From: Escherichia coli
GTDB taxonomy: Bacteria > Pseudomonadota > Gammaproteobacteria > Enterobacterales > Enterobacteriaceae
Strand: one strand, 5' to 3'
NCBI RefSeq assembly: GCF_017348835.2
Contig: NZ_CP071375.1
DNA length: 64,000 nucleotides
The position numbers are program-made. Shown one piece after another: positions 33,001 to 39,000 of this stretch (its first letter is position 1; every line of letters begins with the position of its first letter).

Positions 33001-36000
33001 AACGTTCCGGTGAACTCACATTGACGGCGCTGACCGGTTCTGCATTCCGCAGTTCGTCCCGGTCAGTTATTCAGGGGATTTTTCGCGAAGGGTAACAGTT
33101 CGTGCTGCCGCTCCTGCGGCCATACCGGCAGACGCTCCAGCACCTGTTTCAGCCAGCCATACGGCTCCATGCCGTTCAGCCGCGCTGTCTCCAGCAGGCT
33201 CATCACCGCTGCCGCACGATGCCCTGCCTGCAACGAGCCGGCAAACAGCCACGTATTCCGCCCCATCACCACCTGCCGGATCGCACGCTCACACCGGTTA
33301 TTGTCCAGTGGCAGCGCACCGTCATCCACGAACCGGCTCAGTTCCGTTTTGTGAGACAGTGCATATTTTATCGCCTTATGCAGCGCCGAACCCGGCGCGC
33401 ACCGCTGTTCCTGCGCCGTCAGCCACGACCACAGCGCATCCAGTTGCGGTTTCGCATACCGCTGTCGCCACTGCCGGCGCTTTTCCGGCGACCTGTGGCG
33501 GAGACTGTATAACCCGTGGATCATCTTCAGCGCCGTTCCGGCATGGGGATCGCGGTTCGCCTTATATAACGCTACGAAGCCGCGCCGCGCGTGCGCCCAA
33601 CAGCCTGCGTTGATGATACTGCCACCGTTTTTCAGCGAGTGATACGCCGCGTAGCCATCTGTCACCAGAGTCCCGCTCCAGCCCGACAGCCACGCTTCAG
33701 AATAACGCGCCGCCCGTCCGGGCTGACAGTCGAAGCAGACCACGCTGTCGCCCGTGGCTTCGCCGCTGGCATACGCCCACAGATAACCGTTCTGCACTTT
33801 CCCGCCTTTCTTCGTGTTCAGGATTTGCAGCGGCGTTTCATCCGCATGAAGCACCGGGCGGCTTAACAGTTCCGTGCGCAGCAGCTCCGCCAGCGGCATC
33901 AGCCAGACGCAGGCCGCGCCCACCCATCCGGCCAGCGTGCTCACCGGCAGCTCCACTCCGGCGCGGGCGAACACCTGCTGCTGGTGATACAGCGGCTGAC
34001 GGTCGCAGAACTTGCTGACCAGCACCTGCGCCACCAGGCCCGGCTCCGGGATGCCCTTCGGGATAATCCGTGCGGGCAGACGGCCTGAGACCACGCACTG
34101 GCAGCCGTCGCAGCCGTACTGCGGGCGGACATAACGCTTCACCACGAACTGCGCGGGGATGTAGTCCAGCCGCTCACTGATTTCATCACGGATATGGCGC
34201 AGCGGCTGGCCGCAGTCCGGACAGGCGCAGGCGTCAGGTCTGATAACCGTTTCTTCGCGTGGCAGGTGCGCCGGCAGCGGTTTGCGGGCAGGACGGGCTT
34301 TTTTCTCTTCCGGCTCCGGTAGCAGACGCGTAAGCTGCGTTTCAGCAGAAGCGATATCCGCGTCGGCATCTTCTTCGAACAGGGAACGCTGTAAGCCGCT
34401 GAAGGATTCGGCATGACGGCCAAAACGCTGCTGGCGGGCCAGCATCAGGGCTTCTTTCAGCAGATGTATCTGGTGATCTTTTTTGTGGCTTTCTTCCAGG
34501 AGGGATAACGCCAGCTTACGCAGCGTGTCGGGGTCGTTGGTGGAGAGAAGCGCGGTGATATCCATGCCGGGTATTATACGCTTTCCGGTACGGATATTCA
34601 TTTAAAATCATTGCATTAGTAACGTGCATGATGCCCATTTTGTCAGGTCATGACCGGACATTTTCTGCCAGTCGATGCCGGAGACGAGCCAGTCAAACTG
34701 TTCCGGGGTGAGTGACCATGTGCTGTCGCCGTCACGCGGCCAGGTGAAACGCCCCCGGTGCAGGCGGCGGGAGCAGAGCCAGACGCCATGTTTATCCCAC
34801 CGCAGCAGTTTGATGCGGGTGCGGTTTTTATTGGTGAAGAGGAAGGCGGCGCCGTTATGCCAGGGCATGCAGAGTGAGTTCTGCACATACATCGTGAGGA
34901 CATCAATACCGCAGCGCATATCGACGGGATGGCGGACGAGGAAGAGGCGCTCAGGCTTCAGCATGTTTCACCGCCCGGAGAACGTCAGGAAGTTGAGCGG
35001 GAAGGCAGTCAATACGACAACCGCCGGGAAGATGGAGGGTGATGACGCCACCGGCTGGCGCGGGTTCAGGTGATGGCTGAATACAGACGGGCAGCAGTAC
35101 GGGGTGCTCAGCAACAGAGACGCCGTCATCCGGCAGGCGAAGCCATTCGTGAAAAGCATGTGAAGGAAGGCCGTGGAGGCGACAATACTGAAGCCGGGTA
35201 AGGCCGCTGGCGCGCCAGTCACGGACATGCTGAATTTTTTGCGTGGTGGAGTGGGTGGTCATGTTTTTATCTCACGGAATAAACATGACCACGATGCTAC
35301 AGGGCTGAAAAAATTTGAAAATGTGAGTTCACCGGAACGTTACAATTTAATAGTTGATGATTATTGATTTTGTCAGTGTTGATAGGAAAGCGTACAAAAA
35401 ATTTTGCCCCCAAAATTTTTTGTACGAAAACCGATGAATAACCCGGGATTAATAGGAAACCACCCCAAATTATTTGCCCCAAATAATTTTGCCCGAAAAC
35501 CGATGGATAACGCGATCTTTTCAAGGCAACGGCTATCAGTCAGTATCCCTTCGCCCGTAAACCTGCGCCACATACCGCCCGCGCCCGTCGCCGTGGCCCA
35601 AATCCATCGACGTCATCGCCAGCGCTTCCTTCTCACAAAATCCCTGCGCCAGATAATGACGAATGGCATCCTGCGCCCATGCGTAGCGCAACGAGTGCGG
35701 GGAATATGCGCCCGTTAAGCCAAGACGTGACGCCTGACTGTGCCAGTATTTCATCGCGCTTTTCAGATCCGGCTTATCTATCAGTCTGCCGTGACGATCT
35801 TCTGCCACCGCCAGCGCATTATCCAGCGCGTTTCTGACAGCAACAGCATCAATAATAATTGTCTCACGGGGTCGCCCGCCTTTGGTGCCGAACACCACGG
35901 TTAAGCGAGTGTCACCAAGATCCAGCGCCTGCCGCCACGTTTTCAGCGATTGTGCGCTTTGTACCGCCTCCTGCGAACGTAATCCCATCAGCCTTGAGAG

Positions 36001-39000
36001 TTCCAGCGTTGCCGCCAGCCCCGGATCTTTTGCGCGGGCGGTTTCCAGCACATGGCGGTAATGCTCCGGCGTGATGGCCCGCTTCGTACCGTTACGGGAT
36101 GCGCCAGACAGGCCCAGCGAGCGGTTATTCAGTCGCTCACTCTGCGCCAGCCTGTCACGCCCGGCCTGTTTCAGAATGCAGCGCACCGCCGCCATCTCAT
36201 TTTGCAGGGAACGCTTCGTGATACCCTGCGCCAGTCGTTCACGAACATATCCCTCAATATACCGCGCCTTAAGCTGCTCCACCCGGCGGATCTGCACATT
36301 CTGTGCCAGAACCAGACGCTCACAAAACCGCTGCACCAGCTTAATACGGTCGTGAACGGTCTTATGGCTGCCGCCCGCCTGCTGTGCCAGTCGCTTCATT
36401 TCCTGCTCCAGAATCCCCATACATTCCCCCTTTCATGATTGCCGCAAACTCATCCCCAAAAACTCAACACTGATACAGCGTTCCCCGGCGCACAGGCCGA
36501 TAGCCCCTGAGTTTTGTCGGGGCTGCGAACGATACCTGAGCGCCGGGGCGGCAGCCGTTGAGGTGTGGTGGGGCTTCGGTTGTGCTCTCAGAGCAGCCGC
36601 CCGCTTGCGCGGGTCATCCCCCGGATCGTCCAGATCCGCCTCGGTATCGGTTCATGTTCTCCTTATGGGTAAATGGCCTGAAAAGGCGGTGTCAGAATCC
36701 AGCCATGAGCTGGCGCAGTTGAGTTTTCTGGTGCAGGTCGAAAGGGCTTGCGTGCGTCACTTTCCCGCTTTGCGCGGTTAAAGTGACGCACGGATCTGGT
36801 GCAGCATCTGAGATTTATCGTCTGGTGCAGTTTTACGGTCACGCGGCAGCAAAGCCTGACGGCAATGCAGGCCGCAGCCCGTAAGGTAAAAGGCGCTGAG
36901 GGTGTCAGCAGATGCAGGTTAGCCGGGAGAATTCCGGCGCGGTGCAGATTCAGACCAGCAGGCTGGCGAAGTAAAAGGATGTATCGTATTAAAACTCTGG
37001 CCTCCGTCGCGATGTTCTGCGACCCGGTGTTTGCAGAGGTCTGCACCGGTAAACGGATCGACCGTCCTGATAACAGGCGCTTCTTTCAGGTTGTGAAGCG
37101 TTGGGCGCTGTCTACGACAGCATAGAGCAAGGGGGAGACTACGCCTGTGCCGCTGGCGCGGAAAGGAGAAACTGTTTTTACCTGCAAAAGGATTTTTTAA
37201 TCACTTGTTGTTATAAAAAATGAGGGCGCTGTATGTGACAGCGCCCTCGTTCAGGTTACATAAAAAATATCAGCTCAGAATAGCTTCCAGTCGAGCCAGC
37301 ACCTCATTCACGACAGCATCGGGTATACGTTCCAGCCGCTTACCGCTCCGAGCTCCCATATCAATGGTTCTGGGCTGGTCGCAGCGAATAACGCCCGTTG
37401 TTTTTGTTCCCGCCCCGTCCAGTGAAACGGTAAAACCGGCTTCGCGGGCAAAGTTTCCGCCGCTGGTGACAGGGACAACAACAGGCAACCGGGTGAACGT
37501 GTTAAACGATGCCTTCGATACGATGAGTACCGGACGTTTTCCACTTTGTTCATGGCCAGTGGTGGGATCCAGTGAAACGAGCCAGATTTCTCCTCTGTCC
37601 ATCTACAGGATCTCCTTGCCCACCGCAGGCGCATCAATCCATTCCCGACCCTCTTCGCTTATTTCAGCGTGCGGATCGCACTGCGCCAACAGTTCTTCGA
37701 GCGAATAGCGGGGACGTTTTTGAGGTTCAATAATCAGGCAGCCATCATCAATGGTCATGCCCACTTCGCTGTCCGTCGACAGCCCTAGCGTTTTCAGCAC
37801 GGCGGGGGGAACCGCCAGCATGACGGATCCGCCAACCTTTTTCAGGCGAGTGGTATACATAGAGCACCTCCAGATATTATATTTTAATATAACATCTACG
37901 GCAGACGATGCACAACTATTCATCAGGTTCATTGTGGTTTCCTTAGTGTAATAAAGCGTGAAGAAAGCCTTAATCCATCGGAAGACAGATCCGGCAGTTT
38001 TCAAAGGCGACATTGCCGGTAAAAGGGCAACCGTCCTGATACATCAGGCGCTTCTTTCAGGTCATGAAGCATTTCGTACAGGCGGGAGCTTAGTGCGTAA
38101 CAAAGAAGGCCGATAATAGGAAACTGCTTTTGCAGTTCAAAGGATTATGACGGTTCGGATAAACAAAATGCGGCGCAGCTTCCGTATCCGGGCTGCGCCG
38201 CAGGAACATCAGCGGTAGCGCGAAGGCCAGATTTGCTCAGGCTTGAAGCCTAACGCTTCGGCAATTAACCTTTCGCCTTTGGGCCAGCGGCGGGTAAGCG
38301 CATTAGCCAGCGTGGAGGACGCCAGACCTGCCTGACGCGAAAGCGCTGACAGCGAAGTGCCTCGTTTTTTCAGCCCGGCGATAATGTCGGCAGGATGCCA
38401 GTCCTGCAGCATCATGCAGCCACCTCGTCGATAAACTTCACGCCGTCGGCGGTGCGGAGCCAGCGCGGGGCTTTCATTTCGGCGGCAAAATACCAGACCA
38501 GTTCACATAATAAGCCTGTTATCGTCTGCTCCACTTTTGGCTGCATCCCCTGCCCGATAAGAAGTTGCGCCAGCGTCAGTGAGTAATCACAAAGTAATTC
38601 TGCGTCGGGGACAAATCGGGGCATATCGGCAGGTAGAGCATCAACGGTCAGGCTGTCAGTCAGATGAGACGGGATGGGGTCGTTCAGCGTGGGTTGCAGC
38701 AAAGTGAGACAGGCGGCAAGTCGCCCGCAAAGCGCCAGCCGCAGCACCGGATCTTCGCTTTCGATCAGGGTTTCGGCGACGTTTTCGCAGTGGTCTGCCA
38801 GTACGGTAAAATCTGTGGCAGCACTGAAGGGAACAGCAAGTAACGGGTGTGTCTGAGTGGGGATCGTAGCCATAAAGGCAGCCTCCAGTATGTGGTTTGA
38901 AAACCACCACCAGAGGTTCCAATCTCATGGGTGGTGGACTGAACGAGGTTGGAACTACCGGCCATACTGGAACCGGCGCACCTTACGGTGCCCCCGCCCA

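What the first reader, a model, noticed from the sequence alone, without database searches (positions are those of the whole stretch)
35536..37860. Plasmid-type maintenance genes (tyrosine recombinase + PemIK toxin-antitoxin) embedded in a chromosomal tRNA-Asn island
PemI/PemK are near-identical in recall to the R100/R1 plasmid addiction module, and the adjacent 294-aa tyrosine recombinase resembles plasmid multimer-resolution or shufflon-type recombinases rather than the P4-type integrase at the island edge. With the repeat arrays on both sides, this suggests that a plasmid fragment was captured into the asnT island.
Basis: partly seen in the sequence, partly recalled or inferred. Interest (0 to 1): 0.4.

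Follow-up and report, generated by a model that had tools for sequence, protein, structure and literature searches.

The report
Decayed mobilizable island backbone at asnT
The "recombinase plus PemIK" segment is not a captured plasmid fragment but the conserved backbone of a worn-out mobilizable genomic island, whose "integrase" is most likely an unusual conjugation relaxase sitting beside its probable transfer origin and a swappable toxin-antitoxin cassette.

Summary
The ORFs are real and at the stated coordinates, in an island next to asnT. Two recalled resemblances fail. PemK and PemI are 76% and 72% identical to IncFII PemK/PemI (71% at DNA level), not near-identical. The 294-aa protein is not a Xer/ResD/Rci-type recombinase. 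It belongs to Pfam PF12834+PF12835, the family of the SGI1 atypical relaxase MpsA. It is 49% identical over its full length to the ICE SGI-4 protein used as a seed for the MOB_M relaxase class.

In 5,426 complete E. coli genomes this gene family occurs at 687 places, all chromosomal. The same backbone sits at asnT, asnW and asnV with different anti-phage cargo. That backbone is: P4-type integrase, MOB_M-like gene, a toxin-antitoxin slot, a Ner-like gene and a 153-aa gene.

In 78 Enterobacterales loci the slot holds pemIK (6), a Gp49/HigB-like pair (9) or neither. About 110 nt upstream of the gene lies the orphan Rfam motif EFASI, with covarying inverted repeats. This is a probable oriT.

The window's copy is decayed: an IS66 insertion, no attR, and cargo cut by IS3. 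The Salmonella pESI plasmids carry an IS-truncated remnant of this backbone, so transfer was probably from island to plasmid. Relaxase and oriT functions are inferred, not shown.

The parts
31010..31086 (+). tRNA-Asn (asnT). Its 3' end holds the 17-bp attL core CCAGTCAGAGGAGCCAA (31070-31086).
   Evidence: ARAGORN. The 17-mer was found here and at the other three asn tRNAs only, so there is no attR copy in the window. The intact relative L005 has the 17-mer at both island ends.
31235..32497 (+). P4-type tyrosine integrase, intact, 420 aa.
   Evidence: Pfam Arm-DNA-bind_3 + Phage_int_M + Phage_integrase. Annotated as a tyrosine-type recombinase/integrase in PE164.
33002..35343 (-). IS66-family insertion (tnpA, tnpB, tnpC) between the convergent integrase and MOB_M-like genes.
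   Evidence: Annotation. Absent from relatives L005, L006 and L002, which are colinear across the junction. Terminal inverted repeats are visible in the sequence.
35391..35426 (-). Perfect 16-bp palindrome downstream of the 294-aa gene, terminator-like. It is part of the 35391-35514 repeats.
   Evidence: the repeat finder I2/D1; terminator-like scan.
35536..36420 (-). 294-aa MpsA/MOB_M-family tyrosine-recombinase-like protein, a putative relaxase. Catalytic residues R148, K180, H242, R245, H276 and Y283 are all present.
   Evidence: PF12835 211.9 bits and PF12834 122.9 bits. 49% identity over the full length to SGI-4 WP_033567157.1. 26% identity, E 8e-8, to SGI1 MpsA, which itself hits PF12835. 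Invariant catalytic columns in A1.
36483..36655 (-). Candidate oriT. It comprises the EFASI motif (36526-36655), an outer 9-bp inverted repeat (36483-36491 / 36540-36548) and the near-invariant cores GGTATCGTTC (36527-36536) and ACCTCAAC (36557-36564).
   Evidence: Rfam RF02957 at 118.7 bits, gathering score 51.2. On 71 distinct sequences, 98.9% of cells are paired, 9 of 14 pairs change on both sides, and 0 of 500 shuffles reach the observed values. The core motifs occur in 68 of 73 loci. EFASI sits at the same position in SGI-4, a Pantoea plasmid and other loci.
36983..37122 (-). STAXI-like motif, partial and below the gathering score. It overlaps direct repeat DR1 (37046-37102).
   Evidence: RF01728 at 37.3 bits against a gathering score of 40.5, E 1e-5. 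Full-scoring STAXI copies occupy the same position in L011, L010, L016 and L062.
37198..38211 (-). pemIK cassette, present here and absent from the pemIK-less S. India backbone. It contains the terminator (37222-37248), pemK (37270-37602), pemI (37603-37860) and DR2 (38016-38073).
   Evidence: Pairwise BLASTN against L003. Pfam PemK_toxin and MazE_antitoxin. Terminator-like site. Repeats D2/D13.
38209..38873 (-). Conserved backbone genes: a Ner/SfsB-like HTH_35 protein (38209-38415) and a 153-aa protein of unknown function (38412-38873), overlapping by 4 nt.
   Evidence: Pfam HTH_35 at 113 bits; NCBIfam SfsB at 105.9 bits, below cut-off. Found upstream of the MOB_M-like gene in 34 (Ner-like) and 22 (153-aa gene) of 78 loci. 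The 153-aa protein models as a helical bundle with no informative fold match.
38927..39132 (-). Phage immI-type leader upstream of the 153-aa gene: C4 antisense RNA (38927-39013), isrK-like (39039-39119) and c4 a1/b1 targets (39080-39132).
   Evidence: Rfam scores of 83.2, 72.6 and 48.0 bits, all above gathering scores. About 74% DNA identity to the immunity/antirepressor regions of many lambdoid and Stx phages.
39244..43725 (-). Low-GC (36.5%) cargo: an LA2681-type HEPN protein (39244-40848) and an EruA-like NACHT antiphage protein that matches only positions 399-1318 of the 1318-position model (40861-43725). It abuts IS3 (43815-45028) and the truncated yeeJ.
   Evidence: Pfam HEPN_LA2681. 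NCBIfam EruA at 649.6 bits, below the cut-off of 1000. Annotation of IS3 and the yeeJ pseudogene. GC content.

Best explanation
The segment is the conserved backbone of a decayed integrative mobilizable element (IME) inserted at asnT.

Layout, read leftwards on the minus strand:
1. A phage-immI-like leader (C4/isrK).
2. A 153-aa gene and a Ner-like regulator.
3. A 'slot' that here holds pemIK with its own terminator.
4. A STAXI-like element.
5. The EFASI element with covarying inverted repeats.
6. The 294-aa gene.
7. The convergent P4-type integrase next to attL.

Proposed mechanism (inferred):
- The P4-type integrase excises the island as a circle.
- The 294-aa MpsA/MOB_M-type tyrosine-recombinase-like protein recognises and nicks the EFASI-centred origin of transfer. 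The DNA is then exported through the type IV secretion system of a co-resident ICE or conjugative plasmid.
- PemK, a stable MazF-type endoribonuclease, and PemI, a labile antitoxin, penalise cells that lose the excised island. This is how pemIK stabilises R100/R1. It may also help the island establish in recipients, because the cassette lies on the presumed leading side of oriT.

This particular copy can probably no longer excise. attR is gone, the cargo is truncated by IS3, and an IS66 element sits between int and the relaxase-like gene.

Shown: the gene content, family assignments, synteny, chromosomal distribution, conserved structured DNA, and the cassette nature of pemIK. Inferred: relaxase activity, oriT function, the addiction function and the identity of the helper.
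For: Family of the 294-aa protein:
- PF12834 + PF12835 over the full length.
- SGI1 MpsA, recovered here from a metagenome contig through its published oriT, hits PF12835 (42.7 bits) and aligns with the window protein (26% identity, E 8e-8).
- 49% identity and 70% similarity over 293 aa to WP_033567157.1 of ICE SGI-4. That protein is a named seed of the MOB_M class in preprint 10.64898/2026.01.13.699239. The match satisfies the preprint's second-round recruitment criteria of >30% identity and >50% coverage.
- The catalytic R-K-H-R-H-Y residues are invariant from the window protein to MpsA.
- The preprint reports that MOB_M genes are almost exclusively chromosomal, that 96% lie next to an integrase, and that they are sometimes annotated as integrases.

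Distribution and synteny:
- 687 places in 608 E. coli genomes, all chromosomal.
- A P4-like integrase lies within the locus in 60 of 78 Enterobacterales loci, next to tRNA-Asn, -Phe, -Leu, -Gly, -Pro or -Met.
- The same backbone sits at asnT, asnW and asnV with different defence cargo.
- An intact 15-kb relative is bounded by a perfect 17-bp direct repeat.
- No T4SS genes are annotated in the island.

Candidate oriT:
- EFASI at 118.7 bits, about 110 nt upstream of the gene.
- Covarying inverted repeats: 98.9% of cells paired, 101 cells with changes on both sides, 0 of 500 shuffles reaching the observed values.
- The same EFASI-gene arrangement occurs in SGI-4, a Pantoea plasmid and seven other loci tested.
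- G-T versus A-C mismatches number 56 versus 43. This is close to symmetric, as expected for a DNA-level element rather than an RNA.

pemIK as a cassette:
- The slot holds pemIK in 6 loci, a Gp49/HigB-like toxin with an HTH antitoxin in 9, and neither in the rest.
- The S. India backbone lacks the cassette.
- Toxin-antitoxin genes are over-represented in conjugative leading regions (PMC11541004).
Against: - No member of this subfamily has been tested for nicking or mobilization. The experimentally studied relatives are distant (MpsA, 26% identity) or of a different Pfam make-up (MobK, TcpM).
- ICE SGI-4 also encodes a TraI-like relaxase (PMC6543542). The MOB_M-like protein there could therefore do something else.
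- The CONJscan MOB_M profile (cut-off 84 bits) could not be run.
- Rfam classes EFASI as an sRNA, and the covariation would also fit an RNA leader of the gene.
- SGI1's oriT is not an EFASI motif.
- No excisionase/RDF and no helper were identified.
- PemIK could act mainly as an abortive-infection defence in what is otherwise a defence island.
Confidence: 0.6

Rival explanations
1. A fragment of an IncF-like plasmid was captured by the asnT island. The fragment carried a multimer-resolution or shufflon-type recombinase together with the pemIK addiction module.
For: pemIK is homologous to the IncF module, which is present on about 4,000 plasmids. About 146 Salmonella pESI-type plasmids, typed IncFIB, share 1.6 kb including pemIK at 82-89% identity.
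Against: - Similarity to IncF is confined to the ORFs at ~71%, with no flanking co-linearity.
- The recombinase is not of PF00589/Xer/Rci type. It is found on only 55 of 72,556 plasmids and on no E. coli plasmid.
- The recombinase and pemIK are separable. Most loci have the recombinase without pemIK, and pESI has pemIK without the recombinase.
- The pESI segment contains island backbone DNA cut by an IS inside EFASI, plus a P4-integrase remnant.
Confidence: 0.05
2. The 294-aa protein is a true site-specific recombinase, not a relaxase. It would act on the inverted repeats of the EFASI region. Possible roles are resolving dimers of the excised circle, resolving tandem island arrays, or exchanging modules between islands. 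PemIK would still serve as a stabiliser.
For: - All catalytic residues of tyrosine recombinases are present, together with a fused N-terminal SAM-like core-binding domain that MpsA is said to lack.
- SGI-4 has a separate TraI-like relaxase.
- Tandem or multiple copies occur (L023, L042; seven loci in one Citrobacter youngae genome).
- A ~57-bp direct repeat flanks the pemIK cassette.
Against: - It shares a Pfam family with MpsA and aligns with it directly. MpsA is required for SGI1 transfer (PMC6414798).
- It is a close relative of a MOB_M seed.
- The conserved site is a multi-hairpin region of ~170 nt, not a simple pair of binding arms around a short spacer.
- A resolution function would be of little use to small, apparently non-replicating islands. 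Their only other mobility gene is an integrase, so they would otherwise lack any route of horizontal spread.
Confidence: 0.2
3. PemIK here works mainly as an anti-phage abortive-infection module, as one more defence gene of a defence island. It would not be an addiction module for the island. This is compatible with either reading of the 294-aa protein.
For: The cargo of every copy examined is anti-phage: EruA-like/HEPN, Avs3 and Gabija-like nuclease/helicase pairs. PHROGs lists the toxin family among phage 'moron' genes.
Against: - pemIK lies in the conserved backbone between regulator and oriT candidate, not in the variable cargo. It shares the backbone's GC content (0.51 versus 0.365 for the cargo).
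- The same slot holds an unrelated toxin-antitoxin pair in other islands.
- There is no PADLOC hit.
Confidence: 0.15

Closest known systems
SGI1 mobilization module (mpsA-mpsB-oriT) of Salmonella Genomic Island 1
   Same: Both are integrated islands with a separate integrase and no full T4SS. Both carry a tyrosine-recombinase-like protein of Pfam PF12835 with the R-K-H-R-H-Y set, and a GC-rich multi-hairpin region upstream of that gene (PMC6414798). SGI1 also carries a toxin-antitoxin system for its own maintenance (sgiAT; from my own knowledge, not checked here).
   Different: Identity is only 26%. The window protein has a fused PF12834 N-terminal domain and no mpsB-like gene. SGI1's oriT is not an EFASI motif. 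SGI1 integrates at trmE rather than a tRNA gene, and no IncC-type (AcaCD) control is evident here.
MOB_M-like protein WP_033567157.1 of ICE SGI-4, and the 'iMOB' islands of preprint 10.64898/2026.01.13.699239
   Same: 49% identity over the full length. Both show the same STAXI-EFASI-gene arrangement. Both are chromosomal, lie next to an integrase and are annotated as an 'integrase'.
   Different: SGI-4 is an ~80-kb self-transmissible MPF_G ICE that also has a TraI-like relaxase. The window element is a ~13-kb remnant with no transfer apparatus.
PemIK (Kis/Kid) addiction module of IncFII plasmids R100/R1
   Same: Identical lengths (85 and 110 aa). The antitoxin gene sits directly upstream of the toxin gene. 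The Pfam families are the same, with 72% and 76% protein identity.
   Different: It is not near-identical. It is chromosomal and island-borne, not beside a repA gene. It occupies a slot that other islands fill with an unrelated toxin-antitoxin pair. The closest relatives (93-94% protein identity) are on Salmonella pESI plasmids.
EFASI (RF02957) and STAXI (RF01728), orphan Rfam motifs
   Same: EFASI matches the full-length model at 118.7 bits. It lies downstream of a STAXI-like element and upstream of an 'integrase', exactly as Rfam describes the family.
   Different: Rfam treats both as sRNA genes. It states that EFASI's function is unknown and raises a single-stranded-DNA role for STAXI. Here the 'integrase' is identified as MOB_M-like, and the motif extends 3' by a covarying 9-bp inverted repeat outside the Rfam model. 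STAXI in the window is sub-threshold and partial.
P4-integrase islands at asn tRNA genes (HPI, the pks island, Klebsiella GIE492/ICEKp)
   Same: The same insertion sites, the same type of integrase, and 17-bp direct repeats from the tRNA 3' end (the HPI/pks comparison is from my own knowledge).
   Different: Different backbone and cargo. Those islands are not known to me to carry the MOB_M-like/EFASI module. The preprint assigns GIE492 an ICEKp1-type oriT.

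Membership tests
PemIK/Kis-Kid type II toxin-antitoxin (MazEF superfamily) | Toxin with a PemK/MazF domain | tested here: met
   PF02452 at 101.5 bits over residues 3-109.
PemIK/Kis-Kid type II toxin-antitoxin (MazEF superfamily) | AbrB/MazE-type antitoxin encoded immediately upstream in the same operon | tested here: met
   PF04014 at 28 bits. pemI 37603-37860 abuts pemK 37270-37602 on the same strand.
   76% (PemK) and 72% (PemI) identity to IncFII PemK/PemI. 70.8-72.1% DNA identity.
PemIK/Kis-Kid type II toxin-antitoxin (MazEF superfamily) | Endoribonuclease toxicity neutralised by a labile antitoxin; post-segregational killing | not testable with these tools
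   Needs expression and stability assays.
MOB_M / MpsA-like tyrosine-recombinase-type relaxases | Pfam PF12835 catalytic domain, the signature used for MpsA in PMC10484663 | tested here: met
   211.9 bits over positions 1-149 of 149. MpsA itself scores 42.7 bits.
MOB_M / MpsA-like tyrosine-recombinase-type relaxases | BLASTP relationship to a MOB_M seed (>30% identity, >50% coverage, as in the preprint's second round) | tested here: met
   49% identity over 293 of 294 aa to WP_033567157.1.
MOB_M / MpsA-like tyrosine-recombinase-type relaxases | Score of at least 84 bits against the CONJscan MOB_M profile | not testable with these tools
   The profile (Dataset S2 of the preprint) is not available here.
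MOB_M / MpsA-like tyrosine-recombinase-type relaxases | Catalytic pentad and tyrosine nucleophile conserved | tested here: met
   R148, K180, H242, R245, H276 and Y283 are invariant in A1, which includes MpsA (Y319).
MOB_M / MpsA-like tyrosine-recombinase-type relaxases | Cognate oriT next to the gene | tested here: inconclusive
   A conserved, covarying multi-hairpin region (EFASI plus an outer inverted repeat) lies 63-235 nt upstream. No nick site or transfer data exist.
MOB_M / MpsA-like tyrosine-recombinase-type relaxases | Required for conjugative mobilization; nicks oriT | not testable with these tools
   Needs mating assays and nicking assays.
Plasmid multimer-resolution / shufflon recombinases (Xer, ResD, Rci) | Canonical PF00589 catalytic domain, or Xer equivalog score | tested here: not met
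   PF00589 is not among the hits at E<=0.001. XerC scores 24.4 bits against a cut-off of 335; XerD scores 15.5.
Plasmid multimer-resolution / shufflon recombinases (Xer, ResD, Rci) | Plasmid-borne, next to a replicon, resolution site or shufflon segments | tested here: not met
   0 of 687 E. coli places are on plasmids. 55 of 72,556 plasmids carry a homologue. Contexts are islands or ICE-like regions.
Integrative mobilizable element (IME) | Own integrase and att sites | tested here: inconclusive
   The integrase is intact and attL is present, but attR is absent in the window. The intact relative has both 17-bp repeats.
Integrative mobilizable element (IME) | Relaxase and/or oriT present, but no mating-pair-formation genes | tested here: met
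   A predicted MOB_M-like gene and an oriT candidate are present. No T4SS gene is annotated between asnT and yeeJ. The functions are predictions.
EFASI RNA motif (RF02957) | Score above the Rfam gathering threshold | tested here: met
   118.7 bits against 51.2, model positions 1-133 of 133.
STAXI motif (RF01728) | Score above the Rfam gathering threshold | tested here: not met
   37.3 bits against 40.5. The third repeat unit is largely missing.

The most novel reading that the evidence does not exclude
EFASI and STAXI have been catalogued for years as orphan 'sRNA' motifs found 'around integrases'. On this reading they are DNA-level signals of conjugative transfer. EFASI, with its flanking covarying inverted repeat, would be the origin of transfer recognised by tyrosine-recombinase-like MOB_M relaxases. 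STAXI would be a single-strand element of the adjacent leading region. Toxin-antitoxin cassettes such as pemIK would be slotted there so that they act on entry into the recipient or on loss of the island. If so, about 11% of complete E. coli genomes carry small defence islands that can be mobilized through a relaxase chemistry (a tyrosine-recombinase-type enzyme) that is still mechanistically unexplained.
Probability: 0.45. Interest if true: 0.65.

Novelty: new member of a known kind. Interest (0 to 1): 0.42.

Why it matters
The feature as originally described, a plasmid addiction module in an island, is ordinary. What lies behind it is more useful.

- It is a clear example of the recently recognised class of small chromosomal islands that carry an 'integrase' which is probably a MOB_M relaxase.
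- It shows that the toxin-antitoxin pair is an exchangeable cassette in a fixed slot beside the likely oriT.
- It links two orphan Rfam motifs, EFASI and STAXI, to that relaxase family. This turns their unknown function into a directly testable hypothesis: oriT and leading-region signals.
- It corrects the annotation of a gene family present in 608 of 5,426 complete E. coli genomes.
- It explains how anti-phage defence cargo at the asn tRNA hotspot may move between strains.
- It suggests that the pemIK of the epidemic Salmonella pESI plasmids is a remnant of such an island.

Tried and rejected
- IncF co-linearity: looked for and not found.
- SGI1 in complete E. coli genomes, searched through its oriT: no match. 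mpsA was instead recovered from a metagenome contig.
- Supplements of Kiss et al. 2019: no MpsA protein sequence, but they did give the oriT sequence.
- pIGRK (MobK) is not in the plasmid collection, so MobK was not compared.
- The supplements of the MOB_M preprint and the SGI-4 oriT paper (DNA Research 2025) are not held. The exact experimental SGI-4 oriT coordinates are therefore unknown to me.
- The PIME family (guaA islands, IncP helpers) was considered and rejected: different gene set.
- Solved structures: no sequence relative of the 294-aa protein.
- PADLOC: no hit for any island protein.
- The 153-aa backbone protein models as a helical bundle (pLDDT 73.5) with only generic four-helix-bundle matches, E>=0.07. 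The afdb50 library was unavailable.
- ORFs inside the 800-bp spacer (36421-37218) look non-coding (Arg-rich, not conserved as ORFs) and were not pursued.
- Phage origin: the 294-aa gene is essentially absent from 50,697 phage records.
- G-T versus A-C mismatch asymmetry, used to decide between RNA and DNA: 56 versus 43, only weakly informative.

Full report
**1. What is in the sequence**

The window is E. coli chromosome. It is 100% identical over the queried 2.7 kb to strains PE164 and F2_81. PE164's annotation gives the order mtfA, tRNA-Asn (asnT), island, IS3, N-terminally truncated yeeJ, shiA, amn, yeeN, asnW.

The rest of the island is as follows:
- asnT at 31010-31085.
- An intact P4-type integrase at 31235-32497, with Arm-DNA-bind_3, Phage_int_M and PF00589 domains.
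- An IS66-family element at 33002-35343.
- A Ner/SfsB-like HTH_35 gene (38209-38415) overlapping a 153-aa gene (38412-38873).
- Low-GC cargo (36.5% GC against 54% for the backbone). It consists of an LA2681-type HEPN protein and an EruA-like NACHT antiphage protein that matches only positions 399-1318 of the 1318-position model. The cargo abuts an IS3 copy.

**2. The two recalled resemblances**

PemK is 76% and PemI 72% identical to the IncFII proteins. The operon is 70.8-72.1% identical at DNA level to about 3,900 plasmids, and the match covers only the ORFs. In an IncFII plasmid, pemIK lies beside repA; nothing of that neighbourhood is present here. So this is a homologue, not a near-identical copy.

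The 294-aa protein hits Pfam PF12835 (211.9 bits) and PF12834 (122.9 bits). It does not reach E<=0.001 against PF00589. It scores 24.4 bits against the XerC model, whose cut-off is 335. No sequence relative has a solved structure.

**3. The plasmid-capture test**

Megablast of 35400-38100 found 184 places in 175 of 5,426 complete E. coli genomes, all on chromosomes. A more sensitive search with the 294-aa gene alone found 687 places in 608 genomes, again with none on plasmids. Only 55 of 72,556 plasmids encode a homologue. Most are Pantoea, Salmonella and Klebsiella records typed 'non-mobilizable'.

The best plasmid hit (92% protein identity) is a 473-kb S. India 'plasmid'. The gene there sits between amn and a P4-type integrase, in a row of such islands. 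This is chromosomal-type context, and that copy lacks pemIK.

About 146 Salmonella pESI-type plasmids share window 36642-38240 at 82% identity (pemIK itself 89%). They do not share the 294-aa gene. In pESI the homology stops at an IS481-like transposase gene that begins inside the first stem of the EFASI motif (see section 6). A C-terminal remnant of a P4-type integrase, 68.5% identical, lies about 7 kb away. pESI therefore carries a broken piece of this island backbone.

**4. What the 294-aa protein is**

A Burrus-lab paper uses PF12835 as the signature of MpsA. MpsA is the atypical relaxase of Salmonella Genomic Island 1 and belongs to the tyrosine-recombinase family (PMC10484663). MpsA and MpsB are essential for SGI1 transfer, and oriT lies beside them (PMC6414798).

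I recovered SGI1's mpsB-mpsA-oriT segment from a metagenome contig, using the published oriT hairpin as the search pattern. MpsA hits PF12835 at 42.7 bits. It aligns with the window protein at 26% identity over 191 aa, E 8e-8, and the alignment includes the N-terminal domain.

A 2026 preprint (10.64898/2026.01.13.699239) defines the MOB_M class from MpsA, MobK, TcpM and four further seeds. It reports that MOB_M is the commonest relaxase type on chromosomes. It also reports that 96% of MOB_M genes lie near an integrase, that 56% are in small relaxase-only islands, and that they are sometimes annotated as integrases.

One of those seeds, WP_033567157.1, turned up among my plasmid hits, in the circular form of ICE SGI-4. 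The window protein is 49% identical and 70% similar to it over 293 of 294 residues. In an alignment that runs from the window protein to MpsA, R148, K180, H242, R245, H276 and Y283 are invariant. Y283 aligns with MpsA's predicted nucleophile Y319.

The gene is thus a member of the MpsA/MOB_M family by every sequence criterion I could apply. The CONJscan profile itself was not available. Relaxase activity has not been tested for this subfamily.

**5. The element it belongs to**

The same backbone occurs at three asn tRNA genes with different cargo. The backbone order is tRNA-Asn, P4-type integrase, MOB_M-like gene (convergent with the integrase), spacer, pemK-pemI, Ner-like gene, 153-aa gene.
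- asnT: the window, and RMDEC465.
- asnW: CFIAFB20190157, with Avs3 cargo.
- asnV: LF82, with a Gabija-like nuclease/helicase pair.

In CFIAFB20190157 the 15.1-kb island is bounded by a perfect 17-bp direct repeat of the tRNA 3' end. In the window that repeat occurs only at the four tRNA genes, so the distal end has been lost along with the N-terminus of yeeJ. No T4SS genes are annotated. The window's element is therefore a decayed integrative mobilizable element.

A scan of one genome per species returned 78 Enterobacterales loci, at 56-94% protein identity. Among them:
- 60 have a P4-like integrase within 8 kb, next to tRNA-Asn, -Phe, -Leu, -Gly, -Pro or -Met.
- 34 have the Ner-like gene upstream of the MOB_M-like gene, and 22 have the 153-aa gene.
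- Several genomes hold many copies; Citrobacter youngae has seven.

Phage records essentially lack the gene.

**6. The non-coding DNA upstream of the gene**

The 180 nt upstream of the gene are strikingly conserved in all 71 distinct sequences. The cores ACCTCAAC and GGTATCGTTC are nearly invariant, and a series of inverted repeats varies by compensatory change.

I counted two helices: a 5-bp hairpin, and a 9-bp outer repeat at 36483-36491 / 36540-36548. In these, 98.9% of cells are paired, and 9 of 14 pairs change on both sides (101 cells). None of 500 shuffles reaches the observed values, and slid controls collapse to 25-65% paired.

Rfam identifies the region 36526-36655 (-) as EFASI (RF02957), at 118.7 bits against a gathering score of 51.2. 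It also finds a sub-threshold STAXI-like element at 36983-37122 (37.3 bits against 40.5).

According to the Rfam text quoted in PMC12370729, EFASI stands for 'Enterobacteriaceae, Frequently Around STAXI and Integrases'. It lies downstream of STAXI and upstream of integrase genes, and its function is 'not yet known'. STAXI occurs near ssb, topoisomerase, antirestriction and XerDC-integrase genes and was suspected to act as single-stranded DNA.

EFASI occupies the same position, ending about 110 nt before the start codon, in every relative tested:
- ICE SGI-4, the Pantoea plasmid and the S2122 island.
- L014, L016, L017 and L062.

Full-scoring STAXI copies flank the gene in SGI-4 and in the Pantoea plasmid.

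Across six helices, mismatches are G-T in 56 cells and A-C in 43. This is close to symmetric, which fits a DNA-level element better than an RNA, but only weakly.

The position matches a transfer origin and leading region. The region sits in the first intergenic stretch upstream of a relaxase-family gene, which is where the preprint places MOB_M oriT regions. It has a multi-hairpin architecture. STAXI's gene neighbours (ssb, topoisomerase, antirestriction) resemble a conjugative leading-region gene set; that last comparison is my inference. I therefore propose that EFASI plus the outer repeat is the oriT of this family. I found no paper in the searchable library that makes this link. It remains an inference.

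**7. pemIK as a cassette**

Relative to the pemIK-less S. India backbone, window 37198-38211 is an insertion. It carries its own strong terminator at 37222-37248. It is flanked by a ~57-bp direct repeat, 37046-37102 and 38016-38073. The first copy lies inside the STAXI-like element.

Among the 78 loci, the slot between the Ner-like gene and the MOB_M-like gene holds:
- pemIK in 6 loci.
- An unrelated pair, a Gp49/HigB-like toxin with an HTH antitoxin, in 9 loci.
- Neither pair in the remainder.

Toxin-antitoxin genes are over-represented in conjugative leading regions (PMC11541004). The most economical reading is that the slot hosts interchangeable addiction modules. These would stabilise the island against loss after excision, as pemIK stabilises R100/R1, and might aid establishment after transfer. 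An anti-phage role cannot be excluded.

**8. Verdict**

The best explanation is a decayed MOB_M-type mobilizable island, with a probable EFASI-centred oriT and a toxin-antitoxin cassette. I put its confidence at about 0.6, because relaxase and oriT functions are untested for this subfamily, and because SGI-4 also has a TraI-like relaxase.

The main rival, at about 0.2, is that the protein is a genuine site-specific recombinase acting at the EFASI repeats.

The element is a new member of a recently described kind. The EFASI/STAXI-to-oriT link is the part worth testing.

Noticed in passing
window 38927-39132 (-): A phage immI-type control region lies directly upstream of the 153-aa and Ner-like genes. 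It comprises C4 antisense RNA (83.2 bits), isrK (72.6 bits) and the c4 a1/b1 targets (48.0 bits). It is ~74% identical to the immunity/antirepressor leaders of many Stx and lambdoid phages. Some relatives carry sRNA-Xcc1 at the same position instead. This suggests that the island's leftward operon is under antisense-RNA control.
   Followed up: partly
window 39244-45028: The cargo is a defence pair: an LA2681-type HEPN protein and an EruA-like NACHT protein. The latter matches only positions 399-1318 of the 1318-position model, so the NACHT N-terminus appears to be missing, next to an IS3 copy. No paper on EruA/HyoA was found in the library.
   Followed up: partly
L014 6822-7494; also L015, L018, L021, L023, L024, L026, L027, L033: In these islands the slot that holds pemIK in the window is filled by a Gp49/HigB-like toxin (PF05973) and an HTH_3 antitoxin. 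The backbone therefore has an exchangeable toxin-antitoxin position.
   Followed up: yes
L004 (Salmonella Infantis pESI-type plasmid p-F219) 11622-13190 and 20287-20553: pESI's pemIK is embedded in 1.6 kb of island backbone. An IS481-like transposase gene cuts it inside the first EFASI stem. A P4-integrase C-terminal remnant lies ~7 kb away, beside IS110 and IS66 fragments.
   Followed up: partly
L023/L024 (Affinibrenneria salicis), L042 (Escherichia whittamii); Citrobacter youngae ATCC 29220 loci L037-L039, L041, L060, L086: MOB_M-like/integrase units occur in tandem or in inverted pairs a few kb apart, and up to seven times in one genome. This suggests accretion of such islands at tRNA hotspots.
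   Followed up: no
L010 (Pantoea piersonii plasmid pGABEKP28_3) and other plasmid hits: 41 of the 55 plasmids that encode a homologue are typed 'non-mobilizable' by MOB-suite, although they carry the STAXI-EFASI-MOB_M-like arrangement. Their mobility may be under-called because standard tools miss this relaxase class.
   Followed up: no
window 15400-29930 (L001 1-14502): A Qin/Dic-like defective prophage (dicA, dicB, dicC, hokD, rusA, antiterminator Q) lies at tRNA-Ser 29929-30018, with a frameshifted integrase. It includes a very low-GC stretch (31-33% GC at 19-21 kb) that carries a SAM-dependent methyltransferase and an SMEK-domain gene.
   Followed up: no
window ~55000-57810 (L001 39609-42409): yeeO, between asnW and asnU, is split by a second IS3 copy of the same family as the one that truncates the island. 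The two copies lie in opposite orientation.
   Followed up: no
L012 (Salmonella plasmid pS2122_1) 7793-14629: An EFASI plus MOB_M-like unit lies next to the IsrM and isrN sRNA genes and an integrase fragment on an IncHI2 plasmid. The flanking sugar-metabolism genes include hxlB, which also flanks the LF82 island.
   Followed up: no
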